A stretch of 11,802 nt of DNA from Thermoplasmata archaeon (lineage in GTDB: Archaea; Thermoplasmatota; Thermoplasmata; GCA-020350865): assembly GCA_020348445.1 (NCBI GenBank), contig CP070751.1, positions 1,326,669 to 1,338,470 of the forward strand, given 5' to 3'. The notes under the pieces are model-generated. The model ran no database searches, was not told the origin of the DNA, and saw nothing but the letters and a program-made list of their open reading frames with translations. Positions 1-11,802 of this stretch are shown piece after piece. How positions within the stretch are numbered: the stretch's first letter is position 1; every line of letters starts with the position of its first letter. Position numbers and translations under genes: made by a program.

Positions 1-372
1 CATTAACCCCATCGCGGTTGAAGAATGACCGCTTGCGGTTGTAATCCATCCCATTGCGGTTGAGCAAACCCCACTGGCAGTTGTAATCCATCCCATTGCG
101 ATTGAGCAATCCTCACTGGCGTTTGTATAACTCCCCATTGCGGTTGAATAATCCCCATAGGCGTCTGTACCCCATCCCATCGCGGTTGAAGCTTGCCCGC
201 TTGCGACTGTATAATACCCCATCGCGGTTGAAGCATAGCCGCTGGCATTTGTAGCACATCCCATGGCGGTCGAAGTAGATTCAAAGGCGGTTGTTAAACT
301 CCCCATAGCGATTGAAGCATGCCCCCTGGTGGTTGTTTTATATCCCAAAGCAATAGCATAATCTCCATTTAC
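1..372 (-). repeat. Tandem 42-bp/14-aa coding repeat (8 full units plus 1 partial), YadA/Hep_Hag head-like
   Basis: Units: VNGDYAIALGYKTT, TRGHASIAMGSLTT, AFESTSTAMGCATN, ASGYASTAMGYYTV, ASGQASTAMGWGTD, AYGDYSTAMGSYTN, ASEDCSIAMGWITT, ASGVCSTAMGWITT, ASGHSSTAMGLM (cut by the edge). The DNA core TCAACCGC(G/A)ATGGG recurs. Confidence 0.9.
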
Positions 373-1218
373 TGAGTTATCACTATGATCGATAGTCGCT
401 GCTCCACCAGACACGACTTCTACATCTAATTTTGCTTCTGGGCTCGTTGTTCCAATACCTACATTTCCTTCTATTATCATTCCATTGGAAGGTGCGGATT
501 CTGAGCCTGCCCAAGTTGTTCCCACCGTCACACCACCTACGACACTCAATTTGCTAGCTGCAGCTGTTCCCCCTATGGCAACATTGCCTATGCTATCAAT
601 TGTTAATCTGGTGTTTGTATCTATTGCTGTTGTTCCTATCTTAAATTTATCAGCATCACTGTCATCTACACCCAATGTGAATTTATCGTCGACACCGAGG
701 GAAAATGTTAAAACCGGATCTCCCGAAGAGGCTGATAACTCCAAAAGTGTGTTCGGGCTATTTGTTCCGATACCCACATATTTATCTGCTCCATGGACAA
801 ATAGCGTCTTATCGTGTATGTTTAGATTTCCCCCAATGGGAAAATTAATTTCTCCGTTCCCGTATGTGGTCCCATCTCCCGTTTTAAAACCTAGGGAGGC
901 TTGAGCGAATCCCACTACATCCAATGCTTGGGTGGGATCAGTTCCTATGCCGACTTTGATGGTGGAAAAGACAGGATCTCCACCAATAGCTAAGGAACCA
1001 CTGCTTGCGGTAATCTGGTCTGATGCTCCTGGAAAAGGATCACCATTAATTGTTATCGAGTTCCCACTCTTTATTGTGCCAGAAGCGTGAATATTACCAT
1101 CAACATCTAATTTCTCCGTGGGTGACAATGTTCCGATGCCAACATTTCCCTCAGATGTTATTACCAGGTGCTGGGTTTCATTAGTACCAACATGAAGCAT
1201 ACCCTCGATATGGGCATT
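1..1218 (-). CDS. 3' part of a large surface fibre/adhesin-like protein (GNVGIG repeats followed by YadA-head-like 14-aa repeats); open at the left edge and out of frame with its 5' part
   Basis: Hand translation of the minus frame with codons starting at 1218/1200 has no stop down to base 1: NAHIEGMLHVGTNETQHLVITSEGNVGIGTLSPTEKLDVDGNIHASG...GNVGIGTTSPEAKLDVEVVSGG...ASGYASTAMGYYTVASGQASTAMGWGTD... The frame is closed upstream by TGA at 1219-1221. The first ATG is at 1200. It is absent from the ORF track because no stop lies inside the window. Confidence 0.88.
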
Positions 1219-1851: not shown

Positions 1852-4164
1852 TCAACTACGAGAAGTATAGGCGTGGCCAGGATCCGGGGGAGAAAGTAGT
1901 ATTGGATCAGGATTAAGCCACCGCTTGATTATTGCATCGTTAGCACCTGCATACTTAAGTATCTTCTCAGCCTCTTGCATGATTTCCTGGTCCTTATCCA
2001 CATTATCGGAGAGTTCCAATGCCTTTTCATAGTGCTTATAGGCATCTTCGAACATATGATAAAGCGCTAAGCTAAAGGCAAGGTCACGATGGCCGTCAAT
2101 GTATTTTGGATCGATTTGGATTGCTTTCTCACCATAGAATCGACATTGTTCCAAGTATTTCTTACTATCAATCTGTCGGTAATAAGGAGTGGAATAAAGC
2201 AGACAAAGGTTGGAATGGGTAAGTTTATTATCTTTATTAATTCTTAGAGATTCTGTTAAGTATTTCTTGGCAATTACAGCAGGATTTCCGAGGAGCTCCG
2301 AAGGAATCTTATCCTCCTTTTTCAAAGGTTCTGCTTTCCATTGAGCTAACTTCATCAACACATACCCTAAGTCGTTAAGTAAGGTTCCATTATCTGGTTC
2401 CATCTTGATAGCTTTTAAGTACGTTCTTGCAGATTCAATATAACGCCCCCTCATCTCATTACGATTCGTATTCGTAATTTTATAATTAACATGATTAAGA
2501 AAAGCGTAGGATACTAGAATCCATGGATGTAGTTCTTTCGACCATGTTTTTTCCCATTCGCTAATAGCTATCTTAATTTGGTTATTAGCCTCCTCTGTAT
2601 CTACCATTTGCTTGGCCAACCTACGCAAACCCTCACCATAACAATTCGCAAGGCCGACATGACAGAGCGCTCCTAGTTTCAGATCTTCGATCGTCATGAT
2701 ATTTATCAGATGTTCAATCATTAAGGGTTGTTTCAAATCTTTTGTCGTAAGAGTCTGTTTCAAATCTTCATCTTCCATCGCTTCCAACAAATCCTCAATT
2801 GTGAGTGTCCGTGTAGGACCTTTAATCCTAAAAGCCCGTCTTAGAGTTTCAGTTTTTAGGATCAATTTCATATCTTTGGTTCTTAGGGGTCGTTTGATAG
2901 TTTCACTTGTCAAGGCTTGTATAAACTCTTCGGTTATCTGAGTCTGTTTTAGATCTTCGGTTGTGAGAGCCTTTATCAGATCTTCAAACATCAGGATTGG
3001 TTTAGAATCCTTAATGTTTAAAGCACTTTTAAGATCTTTAATCGTTAGAATCCTTTTCAAATCTTTAGTCTTCATGGTTCGTATCAAAGATTTGCTCTCC
3101 ATGATCCATCTCATATCTTCTGATGTCAAGGGCCTTTTTAATGCTTCATTCGCTAGGGCTTGTTTTAAATCTTCGGTTATCTTGTCTCGCTTCACCTCTA
3201 TTGCTCTCAGGGCCCGTTTGAAGAGTTTTATCGCTATCGGAATAGATTCTGGAGTCCGGTCGACAAAGAAAAGACACCCGTAAAAATAAAGAGTAGCGGG
3301 ATCTTCCACCAAAGCTTCATCCGTCTTAGAAAACCTCTCCTTGGCCTTAACAAGCTTCTCATGCTTTCCTGTTCGTCCGTACTCATCCACCGCATATAAA
3401 CCATCGGCAAGACATCGAATACTACATCCATCCCGTCCTGGAAACGCTTTTGGGTGTAGTTCGAGAACATAGAAAGCTGCTTCCCGAAGTAGATCCTTAA
3501 GGTCTTCATAGTCATTAACCTTCTTTGTCTCCACTCGTACACGAGAACTACATAAAGGTTGTTTTGTTTTCCTATTTAGCTGTTTTAAGAATGATATACC
3601 AGATGGTGTCCCCATACAGACATGTACTTGGGCCTCATAACTATGGGAAACCAACGAAACGTAAATAATAGAGGCCTCGTATTGATTTCGGTAAGGTATG
3701 GGAACTTTATGTTTTATCCATGTACTGAATCGTGCCATAGCACCAACAGGAATTGTGAATCCAGGGGTTTTCAATACGAGATCCGTTGGTACATTGTCTT
3801 CTGATGGAACCACCTTTGTGTGAGCACCCACTGATGCCGAGAAGACACCTAGCAGGTCGGAGCCGAGGGCTTGATCCATGTAGTATGAAGAATGTCCCGA
3901 GCGGGCTCTCTGGAAGGTATCCGCAATGTTAGACAGATGTTCGCGTAAAATCAGCCCTGCTTCGTCAGGCCCCAACCATTCGGATATTTCGCCCTTGACA
4001 GAGATGGGTGCGACATGAATAGATGAAGAAGTCTTTTTAAGCATGCGGCGGTAATAGTGCACCCTAGAGATATAAGAGATAACTACTACTATGACTAAGA
4101 TAAAAAGAGCTATGAATTCCCCCCTGTCGAAAAGTCCCAAAATGAAATCCAATTCTTCGCTCAA
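1852..4164 (-). CDS. Membrane-anchored tetratricopeptide-repeat protein with an internal 9-aa repeat insertion, 770 aa
   Basis: TTG start with GAGGTG SD just upstream. N-terminal TM segment FIALFILVIVVVISYI. TPR-like helices, e.g. YLKAIKMEPDNGTLLNDLGYVLMKL, EKAIQIDPKYIDGHRDLAFSLALYHMFEDAYKHYEKALEL. Confidence 0.88.
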   Translation of the reverse strand: MSEELDFILGLFDRGEFIALFILVIVVVISYISRVHYYRRMLKKTSSSIHVAPISVKGEISEWLGPDEAGLILREHLSNIADTFQRARSGHSSYYMDQALGSDLLGVFSASVGAHTKVVPSEDNVPTDLVLKTPGFTIPVGAMARFSTWIKHKVPIPYRNQYEASIIYVSLVSHSYEAQVHVCMGTPSGISFLKQLNRKTKQPLCSSRVRVETKKVNDYEDLKDLLREAAFYVLELHPKAFPGRDGCSIRCLADGLYAVDEYGRTGKHEKLVKAKERFSKTDEALVEDPATLYFYGCLFFVDRTPESIPIAIKLFKRALRAIEVKRDKITEDLKQALANEALKRPLTSEDMRWIMESKSLIRTMKTKDLKRILTIKDLKSALNIKDSKPILMFEDLIKALTTEDLKQTQITEEFIQALTSETIKRPLRTKDMKLILKTETLRRAFRIKGPTRTLTIEDLLEAMEDEDLKQTLTTKDLKQPLMIEHLINIMTIEDLKLGALCHVGLANCYGEGLRRLAKQMVDTEEANNQIKIAISEWEKTWSKELHPWILVSYAFLNHVNYKITNTNRNEMRGRYIESARTYLKAIKMEPDNGTLLNDLGYVLMKLAQWKAEPLKKEDKIPSELLGNPAVIAKKYLTESLRINKDNKLTHSNLCLLYSTPYYRQIDSKKYLEQCRFYGEKAIQIDPKYIDGHRDLAFSLALYHMFEDAYKHYEKALELSDNVDKDQEIMQEAEKILKYAGANDAIIKRWLNPDPILLSPPDPGHAYTSRS
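2668..3180 (-). repeat. 19 tandem degenerate 27-bp/9-aa repeats, consensus T-x-(E/K)-D-L-K-x-x-L
   Basis: aa 329-499 parse without gaps as ITEDLKQAL ANEALKRPL TSEDMRWIM ESKSLIRTM KTKDLKRIL TIKDLKSAL NIKDSKPIL MFEDLIKAL TTEDLKQTQ ITEEFIQAL TSETIKRPL RTKDMKLIL KTETLRRAF RIKGPTRTL TIEDLLEAM EDEDLKQTL TTKDLKQPL MIEHLINIM TIEDLKLGA. Confidence 0.88.
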
Positions 4165-5059: not shown

Positions 5060-5129
5060 CCTTCTCATATATATTGGTTTTGTGTGGTTATGTAAATACC
5101 GTGAAAGATTAAACGAAAAGGTGAGAAAT

Positions 5130-5357
5130 ATGGAATCAGATGCAACATTGGATTGTAAAGGTCTGTCCTGCCCAATGCCTATTGTCAAGCTGGCCCAGAA
5201 AATCAAGGAACTTCAGCCTGGGCAGGTTCTAGAACTTATGGCAGATGATCCTGGTGCAAAGCAGGATGTACCTGCCTGGTGCAGTAGAACAGGAAATGAA
5301 TTGATCGAATCAGGGGAAAGGGAAGGCCTTTTAATTTTCTATATAAAAAAGAGTTAA
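5130..5357 (+). CDS. tusA: TusA/SirA-family sulfur carrier, 75 aa
   Basis: LDCKGLSCPMP (CPxP motif), DDPGAKQDVPAWC. The true start is probably ATG 5130 with GGTGA SD at 5120-5124, not the 5082 start in the ORF track. Confidence 0.93.
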   Translation: MESDATLDCKGLSCPMPIVKLAQKIKELQPGQVLELMADDPGAKQDVPAWCSRTGNELIESGEREGLLIFYIKKS

Positions 5358-5377
5358 AAAAGGTGGGTGATATTAGT

Positions 5378-5794
5378 ATGACGAATAATGGTACAAAAAA
5401 AGTGAGCATGGTAGTGGCCGAGGGATCCTTTGACAAGGCCATGATGCCCTTTATCGTGGGCTCAACAGCAGCTAGTATGGGAATGGAGGTTCATATTTTC
5501 TTCACATTCTTTGGTTTGAACCTTCTAAAGAAAGGAACAAAACCGAAACTACCCGGTATAATGCGCCCCTTTACTGGTATGATTCTGAAAAAAATGAAGA
5601 AGCAGAAAATACCGGATTTCGAGGAATTGAAACAGCAGGCTAAGGACCTGGGAGTGAAAATGTATGCCTGCAGCACCTCCATGACCATCATGAATGTCAA
5701 GGAGAAAGATCTTATAGATGGAGCCGAGGTTCTTGGTGCGGCAGCATTCCTTGATATCGCTGCTGATTCGGAAGTCCAGCTATTCATAGGATGA
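5378..5794 (+). CDS. DsrE2/DsrE3-like (DsrE/DsrF/DrsH-like family) sulfurtransferase, 138 aa
   Basis: EVHIFFTFFGL and a single Cys in GVKMYACSTSM, plus GAAAFL near the C-terminus. ATG 5378 follows GGTGA at 5366-5370. Confidence 0.85.
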   Translation: MTNNGTKKVSMVVAEGSFDKAMMPFIVGSTAASMGMEVHIFFTFFGLNLLKKGTKPKLPGIMRPFTGMILKKMKKQKIPDFEELKQQAKDLGVKMYACSTSMTIMNVKEKDLIDGAEVLGAAAFLDIAADSEVQLFIG

Positions 5795-5820
5795 TCTGAA
5801 AAAAACATAGGAGGCATATA

Positions 5821-6123
5821 ATGCCGAAAGTTCTCTTCACACTGGTTAGGTCGCCTTTTGAGAAAGATGAGATTCATACAATGGAAACAGTGGCAGCAAA
5901 TAACGAAAAGGGTGTAATCCTCTTCGAGGATGCCATCTACTATGCCACTTCAGAGCATAAGAGAAGAGAACTGCTCTCTAAAGATTATTTGATTTATGCT
6001 ATAAAGGAAGAGCTTGATGCACGAGGCCATGGTGAATTCAGTGCAGAGGGGATTGAATTAATAGACTATGATGAGGCAGTTGATATCATCATGGAAAGGT
6101 ATGACAAGGTGATCTCACTATAA
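5821..6123 (+). CDS. dsrH: DsrH/TusB-family protein, 100 aa
   Basis: LFTLVRSPF, VILFEDAIYYA, YAIKEELDARG and IDYDEAVDII match the DsrH/TusB pattern. No Cys. GGAGG SD. Confidence 0.82.
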   Translation: MPKVLFTLVRSPFEKDEIHTMETVAANNEKGVILFEDAIYYATSEHKRRELLSKDYLIYAIKEELDARGHGEFSAEGIELIDYDEAVDIIMERYDKVISL

Positions 6124-6134
6124 GGAGGAATAGC

Positions 6135-6494
6135 ATGACAAGAAAACTGACTATACTACTTATGTCAGGCCCCATGAAGAGCATGGAGCCAAATACGGCT
6201 ATAAAACTGGCCTCAGCAGCTCTGAACAAGGGCTATGGAGTTAACCTATTCTGCTACGGAGAGGGTGTTTTAGCCATCAAAGAAGGACAGGCTCCAAAAC
6301 GCTTTCCCAATGTTGGTTCCAAGCTTGAAGAACTTATGAAAAAGGGATTGAAGATTGCAGTATGCGAAACATGCTCTGGAGCAAGGGGGCTGCATCAGGG
6401 TGAGGAGATAAAGGGATCAAAGATCGGCAGCTTGACAAAGGATCTTGTGGAGTTCCTTGATGAAAGTGATAGAATGATCACTCTAGCAAGGTGA
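6135..6494 (+). CDS. dsrE: DsrE/TusD-family sulfurtransferase, 119 aa
   Basis: AIKLASAALNKGYGVNLFCYGEGV and VCETCSGARG, which holds the conserved active-site Cys region. GGAGG SD. Confidence 0.85.
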   Translation: MTRKLTILLMSGPMKSMEPNTAIKLASAALNKGYGVNLFCYGEGVLAIKEGQAPKRFPNVGSKLEELMKKGLKIAVCETCSGARGLHQGEEIKGSKIGSLTKDLVEFLDESDRMITLAR

Positions 6495-6498
6495 TTTC

Positions 6499-6855
6499 AT
6501 GGTCAGCTCAATATGTGTTTTGGTAAGAAAAGCACCTTATGGAACAGAAGACGCCTTTGCAGGCCTCAAACTCGGTCTGGCCACAATAGCAAATGGTATG
6601 GAAACAAAGATTATCCTAACTGAAGATGGTGTATATAATGCAATGAAAAACCAAAATCCTGAAAAAATAGGCATGCCTTTGATAGTGGATGCGGTGAATG
6701 ATTTAATTAGCCTTGACGTAAAAATCTATTGCGTTGAGGATCATCTAAAAGAAAGAGGAATTAAAAAAGAAGATTTGCTTGAAGAACTGGTATTTATAGG
6801 GGAAAAGGAGATTTCCGATTTATCATTGGGTTGCGATGTTGTTACCTCTTTTTAA
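6499..6855 (+). CDS. dsrF: DsrF/TusC-family protein, 118 aa
   Basis: VLVRKAPYGTEDAFAGLKL, ILTEDGVY, YCVEDHLKERGI. GGTGA SD overlaps the upstream stop. Confidence 0.83.
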   Translation: MVSSICVLVRKAPYGTEDAFAGLKLGLATIANGMETKIILTEDGVYNAMKNQNPEKIGMPLIVDAVNDLISLDVKIYCVEDHLKERGIKKEDLLEELVFIGEKEISDLSLGCDVVTSF

Positions 6856-9095: not shown

Positions 9096-9198
9096 GATGA
9101 ATATCAATCCCCTCAAAGCCCTTCCCAGCGTCGAAGAAATTTGAAGGGTCGAGGTGAAAAAATAGGTTCAAATTGAATTAAAAAGAGGGGGCGCAGAA

Positions 9199-9606
9199 AT
9201 AAGAATAGAAATCTCATCCGGGGACATTAAAAACGAGCTGATAAAGGAAATCGAGGAGCTCTCTGGGCAAAAACTTCTATCATGCTACCAGTGCGGGAAA
9301 TGCTCTGCAGGATGCCCAATGGTTGAGGCCATGGACATCCTACCAAATCAGATCATAAGACTGCTGCAGTTGGGTCAGGTCGAGGATGTAAAAGATTCGA
9401 AAACCATCTGGATTTGTGCTTCATGTTTCACATGCGAGGCACGATGCCCCAAAGGGGTGGATCTGTCCAAGATCATGGAGGCTGTGAGGGTTCTTTTACT
9501 TCGAAAGGGTGTGGATTTCATAGAAATATCGAAGCTCTCGGATGATGAGCTCGAGGAGGCCCCCCAGCAGCTTCTTGTGTGCAGCTCTCGAAAGTTCACT
9601 CGTTAA
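9199..9606 (+). CDS. hdrC: Heterodisulfide reductase subunit C (2 x [4Fe-4S]), ~135 aa, probable ATA start
   Basis: CYQCGKCSAGCP (upstream of the ORF-track start at 9319) and IWICASCFTCEARCPKGVD. The frame is open from 9166 (after TAG 9163-9165) with no ATG/GTG/TTG before 9319. ATA at 9199 sits ~7 nt after a GAGGGG SD. The gene identity is firm; the start position is inferred. Confidence 0.9.
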   Translation: MRIEISSGDIKNELIKEIEELSGQKLLSCYQCGKCSAGCPMVEAMDILPNQIIRLLQLGQVEDVKDSKTIWICASCFTCEARCPKGVDLSKIMEAVRVLLLRKGVDFIEISKLSDDELEEAPQQLLVCSSRKFTR

Positions 9607-9617
9607 TTGGTGAAAAG

Positions 9618-10529
9618 ATGAAGGTTACCTACTATCCTGGTTGTACATTATACACAAAGGCCAAGAACCTTGGCGATCTGGCAGTAGCCTCCGCAGAAAA
9701 CCTCGGAATAGAGCTCGTTGAATTGGAGGACTGGACATGCTGCCAGGCTGCATTTCCTTTGGTGGATGACAACATAATGGGGATTATATCCCCCGCAAGA
9801 ATCATAATAAATGCAGAAAAGCGGGGAAACAAGCTCACCACACTCTGTTCATTTTGTTATAATGTATTGAAACGAACAAATAATGTTCTGAAAAACGATC
9901 CTGAAAAAAGGGCCAAGATATGCGATTTTCTGGAGGACGAGTACAAAGGTGAGATCGAGGTAGTGCATTTTCTTGAGATTCTAAGGGATGAGGTGGGTTT
10001 CGATAAATTAAAGAAAGCCGTAAAAAAGAAACCTAAGGGACTTAAAGTGGCTCCTTACTATGGCTGCCAGATAATAAGACCTGCCTCTATTCTAAAATTT
10101 GATGATCCTGAAAATCCCATGATCCTGGATGATTTTCTGGAAAGTCTTGGCTGTGATGTTGTTGACTTTCCTTTTAAGGTGGAATGCTGCGGCTCCTATC
10201 AGGTAATTAATCCCGAGTACAAGGAAATTGCCTTAGGGTGTTCTTATAACATCCTTAAATCAGCGATTTATAACAGTGCAGATGCGGTGGCTCTCACATG
10301 TCCGGTATGTTATTTCAACCTCGACAAAAAGCAGAATGAGATAGCCGATTCCTTTGGTGATTTTGACAGGATTCCGATTCTGTATTTCACTGAACTTTTA
10401 GGTCTGGCTCTAGAAGTCGATTCAAAATTGTTCGATTTTTCAAAGCATGCAATTGATCCAAGACCCTTGTTAACTGATAGGGGGCTCATTGAGGATACTG
10501 GATTATCTGTAAAAGAGGAGGACAAATGA
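9618..10529 (+). CDS. hdrB: Heterodisulfide reductase subunit B (two CCG domains), 303 aa
   Basis: YYPGC, WTCCQ, TLCSFC, PYYGC, ECCGS and TCPVC give all ten expected Cys. ATG 9618 follows GGTGA at 9609-9613. Confidence 0.95.
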   Translation: MKVTYYPGCTLYTKAKNLGDLAVASAENLGIELVELEDWTCCQAAFPLVDDNIMGIISPARIIINAEKRGNKLTTLCSFCYNVLKRTNNVLKNDPEKRAKICDFLEDEYKGEIEVVHFLEILRDEVGFDKLKKAVKKKPKGLKVAPYYGCQIIRPASILKFDDPENPMILDDFLESLGCDVVDFPFKVECCGSYQVINPEYKEIALGCSYNILKSAIYNSADAVALTCPVCYFNLDKKQNEIADSFGDFDRIPILYFTELLGLALEVDSKLFDFSKHAIDPRPLLTDRGLIEDTGLSVKEEDK

Positions 10530-11802
10530 AGAGAATAGGTGTTTTCGTCTGCCACTGCGGAACAAATATAGCAGGGACCGTGGATGTTAAGAAGGTGGTG
10601 GAGGAGGTTTCAAAGCACCCTGCTGTTGTTCATGCTGTGGAATACACTTACATGTGCTCGGACCCGGGCCAGGCAATGATAAAAGACGCCATTAAAGAGA
10701 AGAATCTCGAAGGCGTCATCGTTGCCTCTTGCTCTCCCAGTCTTCATGAGAACACATTCAGAAAGGCAGTATCATCGGAGGATGTGAATCCCTATTTATT
10801 CGAGGCCGCAAATATAAGGGAGCAGTGCAGCTGGGTGCACAAGGACAGGGAGGCTGGCACCGCAAAGGCCGTTAAAATCATAAATGGCATGATTGAAAAA
10901 CTCCAAGAAAATATACCCCTTCACCCCATCAGCATTCCAGTAACAAAAAGGGCTCTGGTTGTGGGAGCAGGTATTGCCGGTATGCAGGCTGCATTGGACA
11001 TAGCCAATTCCGGATACGAGACTATTTTGCTGGAAAAGGAATCCTCCATCGGGGGAAAGATGTCCCAGCTCGCCGAGACTTTCCCAACCCTGGACTGTGC
11101 ATCATGCATACTAACTCCGAAAATGGTGGAGGTTTCCCAGCACCCCAACATAAAACTCATGACCTATTCAGATGTGGAGGAGGTCTCAGGTTATGTGGGG
11201 AACTTTAAAGTCAAAGTAAGAAAAAAGGCCCGCTCAATTAATGAAGAGCTTTGCACAGGCTGCGGAGAATGTGTAAATAATTGTCTTGTGGGCAATGAGA
11301 TTCAATTACAGGAAGCAAAGAGTGTTGAGGGTGAACTTCCAAAAGAGATGAAATCTGAACTGGATAAGATATTTGAAGAATACACTGATGAGGCGGGACC
11401 TCTGATACCGGTTCTACAAGATATCAATGAGAAGTACAACTACCTGCCTGAGCTTGCCTTGAGGTATGTTTCAGAGCGCCTTGAAATACCACTTGGCCAG
11501 GTTTACCATGTTGCCACCTTCTACAAGGCCTTCAGCCTTAAACCCCGCGGCAAACATATCATAAAAATATGCCTGGGAACAGCCTGTCATGTAAGGGGTA
11601 CCAACAGGGTTGTGGATGAAGTCAAACGGGTGCTGAATATTGAACCTGGGGAGACAACAGAGGATGGGGAATATACCCTGGAAACAGTAAACTGCCTCGG
11701 CGCATGCGCCCTGGGTCCAGTTATGGTCCTGGACAATGAATATCACGGCCAGATGAATTCCAGCAAGGTAAAGAAAGTCTTAAAGAAAGGAAAAGAAGGG
11801 AG
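10526..11802 (+). CDS. hdrA: HdrA N-terminal half fused in frame to a NuoE/HydC-like [2Fe-2S] domain; partial, runs off the right edge (>=425 aa)
   Basis: ATG overlaps the hdrB stop (ATGA), GAGGAGG SD. MKRIGVFVCHCGTNIAGTVD, YMCSDPGQ, ASCSPSLHE, ANIREQCSWVH, LVVGAGIAGMQAALDIA, TFPTLDCASCILTPKM, CTGCGECVNNC, then LIPVLQDINEKYNYLP...VATFYKAFSLKPRGKHIIKICLGTACHVRG...TVNCLGACALGP. No stop seen. Confidence 0.93.
   Translation, partial: MKRIGVFVCHCGTNIAGTVDVKKVVEEVSKHPAVVHAVEYTYMCSDPGQAMIKDAIKEKNLEGVIVASCSPSLHENTFRKAVSSEDVNPYLFEAANIREQCSWVHKDREAGTAKAVKIINGMIEKLQENIPLHPISIPVTKRALVVGAGIAGMQAALDIANSGYETILLEKESSIGGKMSQLAETFPTLDCASCILTPKMVEVSQHPNIKLMTYSDVEEVSGYVGNFKVKVRKKARSINEELCTGCGECVNNCLVGNEIQLQEAKSVEGELPKEMKSELDKIFEEYTDEAGPLIPVLQDINEKYNYLPELALRYVSERLEIPLGQVYHVATFYKAFSLKPRGKHIIKICLGTACHVRGTNRVVDEVKRVLNIEPGETTEDGEYTLETVNCLGACALGPVMVLDNEYHGQMNSSKVKKVLKKGKEG

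What the first reader, a model, noticed from the sequence alone, without database searches (positions are those of the whole stretch)
10526..11802. HdrA N-terminal half fused in frame to a complete NuoE/HydC-type [2Fe-2S] domain
Seen: the frame follows methanogen-type HdrA through the N-terminal Fe-S motifs, the FAD-binding GAGIAG, TFPTLDCASC and the first ferredoxin motif C243-x2-C-x2-C-x3-C253 (ending CL, not CP). It then leaves HdrA: after a ~25-aa linker comes a NuoE domain with C349-x4-C354-x35-C390-x3-C394. The partner ferredoxin motif and the C-terminal half of the FAD domain are not in the window. Known: HdrA is the flavin-based bifurcating subunit and normally receives electrons through MvhD [2Fe-2S]; NuoE/HydC pairs with the NADH/FMN subunit NuoF/HydB. 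Inferred: either NuoE is inserted in the loop between HdrA's two ferredoxin motifs, or HdrA is split with its second half on a downstream gene, perhaps joined to NuoF. Either would wire an NADH module directly into HdrABC, giving an NAD(H)-linked, possibly doubly bifurcating disulfide reductase. Other HdrA fusions such as HdrL are known; I cannot establish how novel this one is without a search.
Basis: partly seen in the sequence, partly recalled or inferred. Interest (0 to 1): 0.82.

Follow-up and report, generated by a model that had tools for sequence, protein, structure and literature searches.

The report
Split HdrA wired to NADH module
This gene encodes the first half of the electron-splitting flavoprotein HdrA fused to a subunit of an NADH/ferredoxin module. 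The rest of that module and the second half of HdrA follow in the operon, an arrangement that is real, widespread in uncultured anaerobes, and that I did not find described or tested.

Summary
Window 10526-11802 encodes HdrA residues 1-258, a 15-residue linker and a complete NuoE/HydC-type [2Fe-2S] domain.

The frame is open at 11802 only because the window is one whole contig of a MAG whose 354 pieces are joined by 100-N spacers. Same-genus orthologues stop 5-10 codons later (430-435 aa).

In the intact sister contig the order is hdrC, hdrB, hdrA(N)-nuoE, a HydB/BfuB-type nuoF, then a NuoG-N/HydA-N domain fused to HdrA residues ~273-651. In this MAG the last two genes lie on another piece, behind a gap.

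So HdrA is split inside its inserted ferredoxin domain, between the two Cys motifs, and a whole Bfu/HydCBA-type NADH/ferredoxin module sits in the cut. More than 120 sequence clusters share the fusion, in Thermoplasmata, KSB1, Spirochaetales and WOR-3. KSB1 carries just the five genes.

Closest known relatives:
- HdrA with a GltD/NfnB insert in the same domain ("type III")
- Bam-Bfu (class II benzoyl-CoA reductase)
- Flx-Hdr

I found no paper describing this split. Earlier agents of this scan reported the same layout on other DNA, in at least 26 genomes.

Function (an NAD(H)/ferredoxin-linked disulfide reductase, possibly with two coupling sites) is inferred, not shown. I rate it a new variant of a known kind.

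The parts
9166..9606 (+). hdrC (2x[4Fe-4S] subunit). The open frame runs from the stop at 9163-9165. The first ATG is at 9319, but the first Cys motif lies upstream of it, so the true start codon is unresolved.
   Evidence: Pfam Fer4_17/Fer4_8. Matches the 133-aa G003 HdrC over residues 39-132 from the ATG. The upstream frame holds CYQCGKCSAGCP with no ATG/GTG/TTG before it.
9579..10529 (+). hdrB (two CCG domains, the disulfide-reducing subunit). Its stop overlaps the start of the next gene by 4 nt.
   Evidence: Pfam CCG, 2 stretches, E 2e-14. For the G003 orthologue, NCBIfam CoB_CoM_SS_B at E 1e-52, below the curated cut-off.
10526..11802 (+). hdrA(N-half)-nuoE/hydC fusion gene. It is cut about 5-10 codons before its stop by the end of the contig.
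10526..10930 (+). HdrA N-terminal domain (aa 1-135) with the Cys ligands of cluster HA3 (C9, C11, C44, C69; also C101).
   Evidence: Alignment to 5ODC_A. Cys 99-100% conserved.
10946..11233 (+). First part of the HdrA thioredoxin-reductase/FAD domain (aa 141-236). It holds GAGIAG and TFPTLDCASC, with the equivalents of Cys194 and Cys197.
11252..11284 (+). First CxxCxxCxxxC motif (C243-C253) of HdrA's inserted ferredoxin domain. Its partner motif lies on the other polypeptide.
11285..11329 (+). Short, poorly conserved linker (aa 254-268) at the cut site.
   Evidence: Conservation drops to 0.41 over aa 261-280. HydC homology starts at aa 269.
11330..11788 (+). Complete NuoE/HydC/BfuC-type domain (aa 269-421): helical N-part plus thioredoxin-like [2Fe-2S] domain with C349, C354, C390 and C394.
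   Evidence: Pfam PF01257, E 2e-50. HydC 8A6T_C at E 1e-44, NiFe-HydC 7T2R_C at E 7e-43.
5082..6855 (+). Context only: a TusA/DsrE-type sulfur-carrier gene cluster about 2.3 kb upstream. It may supply the substrate; membership in the system is uncertain.
   Evidence: Pfam DsrE/DrsE_2 on three ORFs. In G001, small ORFs of matching sizes (90-138 aa; not scanned there) lie directly upstream of hdrC on the same strand. No such genes were seen at the bacterial loci.

Best explanation
The window carries the first three genes (hdrC, hdrB, hdrA'-nuoE) of a five-gene core operon for a soluble Hdr-type complex.

Its flavoprotein HdrA is encoded in two pieces. The cut lies in the loop after the first Cys motif of the inserted ferredoxin domain. 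That domain is where canonical HdrA hands low-potential electrons to ferredoxin.

The N-half is fused to a HydC/BfuC-type [2Fe-2S] subunit. A separate HydB/BfuB-type subunit (FMN, NADH site, extra N- and C-terminal Fe-S domains) follows. The C-half is fused behind a HydA-N/BfuA-type [2Fe-2S]+2x[4Fe-4S] domain.

Inferred mechanism:
- The two HdrA pieces reassemble one FAD domain and one ferredoxin domain. The two [4Fe-4S] clusters of that ferredoxin domain are ligated across the two chains.
- This places the Fe-S chain of the NADH/ferredoxin module in direct electronic contact with HdrA's FAD.
- Electrons then pass between NAD(H) (and ferredoxin, at BfuB) and a disulfide or persulfide reduced at HdrB. 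Ferredoxin reduction or oxidation serves as the energy-coupling partner.

This is functionally like Flx-Hdr or 'type III' HdrA, but with a bifurcating-type NADH module.

Shown: the anatomy, its conservation, and the operon. Inferred: assembly, the electron path, direction, stoichiometry and substrate.
For: Domain identities:
- N-half matches HdrA 5-258 (E 3e-93), followed by HydC (E 1e-44).
- The next gene matches HydB end to end (7Q4V_B at 6e-233, 7T2R_B, 8A6T_B). Complex I NuoF covers only residues 150-552.
- In the third gene, residues 1-188 match HydA1-N / a NuoG-like chain, and residues 200-584 match HdrA 273-651 (E 1e-115). It keeps the four HA4 Cys and the Lys409 equivalent in CCMYTPK.

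The halves abut. N ends at HdrA ~266 and C resumes at ~273 (8RVU numbering), so nothing of HdrA is lost. Motif 2 in the C-half (C228/236/239/243) has no partner motif in its own chain. The BfuA-like 2x[4Fe-4S] domain (C126-C177) is self-contained.

The genes are tightly packed: 4-nt and 20-nt overlaps and a 4-nt gap.

The same core recurs in three or four genomes of the genus. It stands alone as five genes in a KSB1 contig, with no MvhD or hydrogenase. It also occurs in a Spirochaetales MAG and another MAG. More than 120 clusters at 90% identity share the fusion, and all Cys are conserved.

Published precedent that this HdrA site can be repurposed for NAD(P)H: the GltD/NfnB insert in the same domain (PMC9012536; PMC12054007). 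Precedent that a HydBC-type module feeds an HdrA-type module: BCRII (bioRxiv 10.64898/2026.04.10.717634; PMC9304861).
Against: - No biochemical or structural data exist for any member.
- In this MAG the operon is broken over two contigs. About 0.8 kb (NuoF residues 1-261) is unassembled, so adjacency here is inferred from the orthologues.
- NADH-driven bifurcation onto a -140 mV disulfide plus ferredoxin would be thermodynamically marginal (my own estimate). The real acceptor or direction may therefore differ.
- Most loci add a ~1000-aa double HdrA, MvhD and an FrhB-like gene, so the complex may be larger and wired like Bam.
- The cross-chain ligation of the ferredoxin clusters is deduced from motif counting, not modelled.
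Confidence: 0.72

Rival explanations
1. Bam-like two-stage machine. The Bfu module confurcates NADH and reduced ferredoxin. It then feeds a second bifurcation in the Hdr part (the split HdrA together with the adjacent double HdrA, MvhD and FrhB-like proteins). The purpose would be to reach an unusually low-potential or otherwise difficult reduction, with the disulfide as the high-potential sink.
For: A ~1000-aa fused double HdrA (BamE-like layout), MvhD and an FrhB-like gene follow the core in G003, the G000 paralogue, L118 and L119. BCRII shows that this logic exists.
Against: The KSB1 operon has only the five core genes. No AOR/BamB-type or other output enzyme lies in the loci read. [quoted passage not shown]
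Confidence: 0.15
2. A plain electron wire. HdrA's FAD does not bifurcate here. The complex is simply an NADH:disulfide (or NADH:fumarate via thiols) oxidoreductase in which ferredoxin plays no coupling role.
For: The ferredoxin-exit site of HdrA is occupied by the NADH module. A published reading of type III HdrA says the inserted domain may block ferredoxin access.
Against: The NuoF-like subunit keeps the extra N-terminal [2Fe-2S] and C-terminal 2x[4Fe-4S] domains that distinguish bifurcating HydB/BfuB from complex I NuoF. HdrA keeps the C-terminal ferredoxin domain, the HA3/HA4 ligands and the Lys409 equivalent.
Confidence: 0.12
3. The terminal acceptor is fumarate, through a thiol:fumarate-reductase-like partner. 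The complex would be an energy-coupled NADH (plus ferredoxin):fumarate system, not a dedicated heterodisulfide or persulfide reductase.
For: The G003 operon ends with a TfrA/SdhA-type flavoprotein. Its best NCBIfam match is TfrA, E 2e-107 but below the cut-off, and it matches SdhA/FrdA structures. Fumarase genes lie directly upstream of hdrC in L119. The second-best NCBIfam hit of HdrB is the SdhE anchor of a fumarate reductase.
Against: No such genes are seen in the KSB1 or Spirochaetales loci. In this window the nearby candidates are TusA/DsrE sulfur carriers instead.
Confidence: 0.12
4. Assembly chimera, or a dead truncated gene at a contig end.
For: The ORF runs into a 100-N spacer, and its apparent downstream neighbours are unrelated surface proteins.
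Against: The same junction occurs at 66-84% identity in three other genomes of the genus and in more than 120 independent clusters from many projects. All cofactor ligands are conserved. The missing partners exist in the same MAG.
Confidence: 0.01

Closest known systems
'Type III' HdrA / HdrA-NfnB (HdrA9-11 of ANME-1; also Bathyarchaeia): HdrA with a ~500-aa GltD/NfnB-like NAD(P)H domain in the inserted ferredoxin domain (PMC9012536; PMC12054007)
   Same: An NAD(P)H-handling module is placed in HdrA's inserted ferredoxin domain. The published reading is that the ferredoxin site is repurposed for NAD(P)H. In my data the N-halves of such ~1110-aa proteins are the nearest relatives of the split form, up to 90% identity.
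   Different: There, a single polypeptide carries one flavoprotein domain inserted after the second Cys motif. Here a three-subunit HydCBA/Bfu module sits between the two motifs, and the gene is split into three ORFs. Neither paper's main text mentions NuoE or a Nuo-linked HdrA.
Bam-Bfu: class II benzoyl-CoA reductase Bam(BC)2DEFGHI of Geobacter metallireducens (PMC9304861; bioRxiv 10.64898/2026.04.10.717634)
   Same: It combines a HydBC/Bfu-type NADH+ferredoxin module (BamGHI) with an HdrA-type flavoprotein (BamE), an HdrB/C-like subunit (BamD) and an MvhD-like adaptor. A double HdrA like BamE also follows the core operon here.
   Different: BamG and BamI are described there as separate Bfu-type subunits, with no HdrA halves reported (I did not inspect their sequences). 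[quoted passage not shown] Bam also has a tungsten AOR output module, which is absent from the loci read here.
FlxABCD-HdrABC NADH dehydrogenase/heterodisulfide reductase of Desulfovibrio (Ramos et al. 2015, cited in PMC6037941 and PMC12054007)
   Same: It is proposed to couple NADH oxidation to disulfide (DsrC) and ferredoxin reduction through HdrA.
   Different: Its NADH module is unrelated (FlxA, an AsrB/PyrK-like protein) and connects through the MvhD-like FlxD. HdrA is whole.
MvhAGD-HdrABC of methanogens (PDB 5ODC, 8RVU)
   Same: All HdrA cofactor motifs, HdrB and HdrC are conserved at 50-60% identity.
   Different: There is no hydrogenase in the core operon. No McrA was found in this MAG (81.7% complete). 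HdrA is split, and its ferredoxin exit is occupied by the NADH module.
nuoEFG-mvhD-hdrA gene clusters noted in sulfate reducers (e.g. Desulfotignum phosphitoxidans, PMC4046663)
   Same: NuoEFG-like genes are linked with hdrA and mvhD at the operon level.
   Different: They are listed as separate genes; no split or fusion of HdrA is mentioned. I did not inspect those sequences.

Membership tests
HdrA (bifurcating heterodisulfide reductase flavoprotein, methanogen type) | N-terminal domain with the Cys ligands of cluster HA3, plus Cys197 in the TFPTxDCxxC motif | tested here: met
   C9, C11, C44, C69, C191 and C194 are present and 100% conserved.
HdrA (bifurcating heterodisulfide reductase flavoprotein, methanogen type) | Complete FAD/thioredoxin-reductase domain with the HA4 Cys and Lys409 | tested here: met
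   It is met only across two polypeptides. GxGxxG and residues up to ~236 are in the window gene. HdrA 273-567, with C326/339/343/344 and the Lys in CCMYTPK, lies in the 588-aa protein on another contig.
HdrA (bifurcating heterodisulfide reductase flavoprotein, methanogen type) | [quoted passage not shown] | tested here: met
   Motif 1 (C243-C253) is in the window gene. Motif 2 (C228-C243) and the C-terminal 2x[4Fe-4S] (C522-C563) are in the C-half protein.
HdrA (bifurcating heterodisulfide reductase flavoprotein, methanogen type) | One continuous polypeptide of ~650 aa | tested here: not met
   It is split into a 430-435-aa protein and a ~590-aa protein, with a gene between them.
Bfu / HydABC-type electron-bifurcating module (Schut et al. 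2022) | BfuC: HydC/NuoE-like subunit with a four-Cys [2Fe-2S] site | tested here: met
   aa 269-421 match 8A6T_C (E 1e-44), with C349/354/390/394.
Bfu / HydABC-type electron-bifurcating module (Schut et al. 2022) | BfuB: FMN/NADH subunit with an extra N-terminal [2Fe-2S] domain and a C-terminal 2x[4Fe-4S] domain | tested here: met
   In the G003 orthologue, Pfam finds 2Fe-2S_thioredx, Complex1_51K, SLBB, NADH_4Fe-4S and Fer4 x2. It aligns end to end with HydB 7Q4V_B (6e-233). In this MAG only residues 262-620 are assembled. Individual ligand residues were not checked.
Bfu / HydABC-type electron-bifurcating module (Schut et al. 2022) | BfuA: HydA-N/NuoG-N-like Fe-S subunit that links to the third substrate | tested here: met
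   Residues 1-188 of the C-half protein match 8A6T_A and 9MQX_A. A [2Fe-2S] and 2x[4Fe-4S] are present. I saw no His-ligated cluster motif.
Bfu / HydABC-type electron-bifurcating module (Schut et al. 2022) | Coupled NAD(H)/ferredoxin bifurcation activity | not testable with these tools
   This needs the purified enzyme.
Bam-Bfu (class II benzoyl-CoA reductase) | BamB tungsten AOR-type catalytic subunit in the gene cluster | tested here: not met
   No AOR-type protein is among the genes of the G003, KSB1, L118 or L119 loci. I did not search genome-wide.
Type III HdrA (GltD/NfnB insertion) | GltD/NfnB-like FAD/NAD(P)H domain inside the inserted ferredoxin domain of one polypeptide | tested here: not met
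   The window gene continues into NuoE and ends. GltD-type Pfam domains occur only in the related ~1110-aa proteins.
sHdr (sulfur-oxidising Hdr-like system) | hdr genes accompanied by TusA/DsrE sulfur transferases and lipoate-binding protein LbpA | tested here: inconclusive
   DsrE-type genes lie 2.3 kb upstream; in G001 ORFs of matching sizes, not scanned there, abut hdrC. No LbpA/GcvH-like gene was seen in the window. This HdrA is of the methanogen type, with all Fe-S domains.

The most novel reading that the evidence does not exclude
The complex is a natural hard-wired tandem of the two mechanistically different bifurcation devices: the HdrA FAD and the Bfu FMN 'flavobicluster'. They are joined through a ferredoxin domain whose two [4Fe-4S] clusters are each ligated by two different polypeptides. 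It performs two coupled bifurcation/confurcation steps in a minimal five-subunit soluble enzyme. The module at this site is evolutionarily exchangeable, Bfu versus GltD/NfnB, as the interleaved N-half phylogeny hints.
Probability: 0.3. Interest if true: 0.8.

Novelty: new variant of a known kind. Interest (0 to 1): 0.62.

Why it matters
Flavin-based electron bifurcation is how many anaerobes make low-potential ferredoxin, and how HdrA-type and HydBC/Bfu-type sites gate electrons is still debated.

This is a compact, widespread, five-gene soluble system in which a Bfu module is covalently built into HdrA exactly at its low-potential exit. It would make a tractable model for asking how two coupling sites talk to each other. 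The only characterised combination, the 1-MDa benzoyl-CoA reductase, is far larger.

It also suggests what some of the ~40 HdrA paralogues of these non-methanogenic sediment Thermoplasmata may do: link the NADH and ferredoxin pools to thiol/disulfide or sulfur-carrier chemistry.

For annotation, these genes are currently named only 'NAD(P)H-dependent oxidoreductase subunit E', which hides the HdrA half.

Tried and rejected
- **Reading beyond 11802 in the same assembly.** This gave a 100-N spacer and unrelated giant surface-protein genes. I rejected them as neighbours because the 'single contig' is 354 pieces joined by spacers.
- **Genome-contig scan with the fusion protein.** Only the two sister genomes showed the split. 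The other 78 loci were canonical hdrC-hdrB-hdrA-mvhD-frhB-like operons picked up through N-half peptides. That scan therefore does not measure distribution.
- **'Longer' homologue search for an unsplit HdrA(N)-NuoE-NuoF... protein.** None was found among the top 120, which are mostly ~1100-aa GltD-insert HdrA.
- **Single origin of the split, tested on an N-half tree.** Monophyly was rejected (AU p 0.000175, 31 changes). I cannot tell repeated module swapping from recombination among HdrA paralogues.
- **The listing of cluster members for organism names.** It added only WOR-3.
- **Literature.** Six full-text searches and ten papers read gave no description of the split. Appel et al. 2021 (BBA Bioenergetics), the most likely place, is not held.
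- **Methanogen reading (CoM-S-S-CoB as substrate).** No McrA was found in the MAG, which is 81.7% complete.
- **Structure prediction.** I did not run it. Single-chain models cannot address assembly, and the sequence matches to solved structures were already decisive.
Full report
**1. The observation**

The window holds a co-directional run of three genes:
- an hdrC-like frame ending at 9606
- hdrB at 9579-10529
- an ORF starting with ATG at 10526 that is still open at 11802

The start of the last ORF overlaps the hdrB stop by 4 nt.

- GAGIAG at 147
- TFPTLDCASC at 185
- C243-x2-C-x2-C-x3-C253
- C349-x4-C354-x35-C390-x3-C394

Pfam finds a full-length thioredoxin-like [2Fe-2S] domain (PF01257, E 2e-50, aa 280-421). 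It finds only the first ~40 residues of FAD-family profiles.

Against solved structures, residues 3-255 of the 84%-identical orthologue match HdrA of Methanothermococcus (5ODC_A residues 5-258, E 3e-93). Residues 269-420 match HydC of the bifurcating [FeFe] hydrogenase (8A6T_C residues 8-158, E 1e-44).

In an alignment of 117 family members all 15 cysteines are at least 99% conserved. The least conserved stretch is the junction, aa 261-280.

'CL instead of CP' is within-family variation: P in 64 and L in 48.

**2. Why the frame runs off the window**

Directly after 11802 come exactly 100 N. The 'single-contig' genome is 354 pieces joined by 353 such spacers. The window is exactly one piece, and the MAG is 81.7% complete.

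The giant surface-protein genes that follow are therefore not real neighbours.

Same-genus genomes carry orthologues of 430-435 aa at 66-84% identity, ending just after the NuoE domain. The window gene lacks only its last few codons.

**3. What follows it**

One sister contig is a genuine 19.7-kb contig, labelled 'uncultured Thermoplasmata archaeon'. Its operon reads:
- hdrC (133 aa)
- hdrB (317 aa)
- hdrA(N)-nuoE (435 aa)
- a 621-aa NuoF-like gene
- a 593-aa gene
- a 1007-aa double HdrA
- mvhD
- an FrhB-like gene
- a ferredoxin-like gene
- a TfrA/SdhA-like flavoprotein

The NuoF-like protein aligns end to end with bifurcating HydB/BfuB subunits (7Q4V_B at 6e-233; also 7T2R_B, 8A6T_B, 9N5U_B). 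This includes the N-terminal [2Fe-2S] and C-terminal 2x[4Fe-4S] domains. Complex I NuoF covers only residues 150-552.

The 593-aa protein, and its 588-aa counterpart in this MAG, has two parts. Residues 1-188 are a HydA-N/NuoG-N-type domain. Residues 200-584 are HdrA 273-651 (8RVU_a, E 1e-115). Its cysteines map as follows:
- one [2Fe-2S] site: C34/45/48/64
- a self-contained 2x[4Fe-4S] domain: C126-136 and C167-177
- the second motif of HdrA's inserted ferredoxin domain: C228/236/239/243
- the HA4 ligands: C326/339/343/344
- the C-terminal 2x[4Fe-4S] domain

The Lys409 equivalent is kept in CCMYTPK.

In this MAG the NuoF-like gene (residues 262-620, 90% identical to G003) begins immediately after a spacer at G000:C1:1563816. 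The 588-aa gene and a double HdrA follow it. About 0.8 kb between the two pieces was not assembled.

**4. Anatomy in one sentence**

HdrA is cut between residues ~266 and ~273 (8RVU numbering), in the loop after the first Cys motif of the inserted ferredoxin domain. A complete HydC-HydB-HydA(N), i.e. BfuC-B-A, module sits in the cut. Its first and last subunits are fused to the HdrA halves.

Motif 2 has no partner motif in its own chain. The two [4Fe-4S] clusters of that ferredoxin domain must therefore be ligated by both polypeptides (inference).

By published structural work, as summarised in PMC9012536, this domain is the route by which low-potential electrons leave HdrA for ferredoxin.

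**5. Distribution**

A word-indexed search found more than 120 clusters at 90% identity. They are 420-436 aa long, show 54-85% identity and nearly full coverage, and carry the same Pfam pair. NCBI names them only 'NAD(P)H-dependent oxidoreductase subunit E'. Sources are Thermoplasmata/'Methanomassiliicoccales' MAGs, KSB1, Spirochaetales and 'bacterium', and WOR-3.

In the 50%-identity library the full-length form collapses to four or five representatives. There are also short forms that lack the N-terminal domain.

Gene contexts:
- a KSB1 contig has just the five core genes between unrelated genes
- a Spirochaetales MAG adds a whole hdrA before the core, and mvhD and an FrhB-like gene after it
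- another MAG has fumarase genes before the core and a double HdrA after it

Among 40 relatives in the class, only this genus showed the fusion.

This MAG also has a second, paralogous operon at G000:C1:~2,985,990-2,997,300. There the Bfu module is inserted in the first unit of a double HdrA that lacks the N-terminal domain.

**6. Relatives of the HdrA part**

The nearest N-half relatives are ~1110-aa proteins (WOR-3, TA06, Stahlbacteria and others). In these a ~475-aa GltD/NfnB-like domain is inserted about 35 residues further on, after the second motif. This is the 'type III' HdrA / HdrA-NfnB already described for ANME-1 and Bathyarchaeia.

On an N-half tree the split forms and these proteins are thoroughly interleaved, with up to 90% identity. 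Forcing the split forms into one clade is rejected (ΔlnL 854, AU p 0.000175, 31 changes). I cannot distinguish repeated module exchange from recombination among paralogues.

**7. Function**

The parts list is what is shown. From it I infer a soluble complex that links NAD(H), and ferredoxin at BfuB, to the HdrB disulfide site through HdrA's FAD.

The five-gene KSB1 operon has no MvhD or hydrogenase. This argues that the Bfu module is the sole redox partner of the core.

Direction, stoichiometry and substrate are open:
- No McrA was found in this MAG, so CoM-S-S-CoB is unlikely as substrate.
- DsrE-type carrier genes lie upstream here; in G001, ORFs of matching sizes (not scanned) abut hdrC.
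- In G003 and L119 the context points to fumarate instead.

Rival readings are a Bam-like two-stage machine, a plain wire, and a fumarate-linked system. They are listed with their tests.

**8. Literature and novelty**

Bfu-HdrA combinations are known in Bam-Bfu/BCRII. nuoEFG-mvhD-hdrA gene clusters are known in sulfate reducers. NAD(P)H domains inside HdrA's ferredoxin insert are known.

None of the papers I could search describes hdrA split around a HydCBA/Bfu module. Appel et al. 2021 could not be read.

Earlier agents of this scan reported the same layout on other DNA: 30 notes from at least 26 genomes. They likewise found no description. Those are unchecked notes and I did not use them as evidence.

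My verdict: a real, conserved, biochemically untested new variant of a known kind.

Noticed in passing
window 9163-9321: hdrC has no ATG/GTG/TTG between the in-frame TAG (9163-9165) and the first ATG (9319). Yet its first Cys motif (CYQCGKCSAGCP) lies in that stretch. The G001 orthologue shows the same 95-aa ORF from the first ATG, while the G003 orthologue has a 133-aa ORF with a GTG start.
   Followed up: partly
G000:C1 whole; window = G000:C1:1326669-1338470: The 5.16-Mb 'single contig' is 354 pieces joined by 353 spacers of exactly 100 N (median piece 2.9 kb). Neighbours across a spacer mean nothing. The window is one whole piece.
   Followed up: yes
L024 5990-17328 (G000:C1:2985989-2997327): A second, paralogous Bfu-split operon. 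Its order is: a 290-aa protein (FAD-domain start, motif 1 and NuoE, without the HdrA N-terminal domain); a 620-aa HydB-like protein; a 1101-aa protein (NuoG-N, HdrA C-part and a second HdrA unit); MvhD; a 1029-aa double HdrA; MvhD; an FrhB-like protein. The same short form occurs in G002, G003 and G004.
   Followed up: partly
G000:C1:3775589-3811160 and elsewhere: The genus carries about 40 HdrA-like matches per genome. One ~35-kb region is packed with ~1000-aa double HdrA genes and lies next to an MvhA-like [NiFe] hydrogenase large subunit (3775589-3776839). No McrA was found.
   Followed up: partly
proteins P0125-P0243, P0259, P0138, P0222: The ~1110-aa HdrA proteins with a GltD/NfnB-like insert share up to 90% N-half identity with individual Bfu-split proteins and interleave with them on the tree. 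A single clade of split forms is rejected (AU p 0.000175). Module swapping or gene conversion could explain this; it remains unexplained.
   Followed up: partly
L022 302-1930 (-) and L119 4820-6316 (+): A TfrA/SdhA-like flavoprotein closes the G003 operon. Fumarase alpha and beta genes precede hdrC in L119. This hints at a fumarate link.
   Followed up: partly
window 5082-6855; L023 14300-16764 (-): The TusA/DsrE-type sulfur-carrier genes lie 2.3 kb upstream of hdrC here, separated from it by bacA and one opposite-strand gene. In G001, ORFs of matching sizes directly abut hdrC on the same strand (not scanned, so their identity is assumed).
   Followed up: partly
window 1-1200 (-), 1852-4164 (-); L009 3597-9566, 10126-14310: There are large surface-type proteins: a YadA-head-repeat protein, a 770-aa TPR protein, and, on other pieces, a 1989-aa beta-helix/Ig-like repeat protein and a 1394-aa acidic repeat protein.
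   Followed up: no
KSB1 contig of P0080, locus coordinates 18030-18872 (-): A 280-aa GcvH-family (lipoate-carrier-like) gene lies 4 kb downstream of the five-gene split-Hdr operon. Lipoate-binding proteins accompany sHdr systems, so this may or may not be chance.
   Followed up: no
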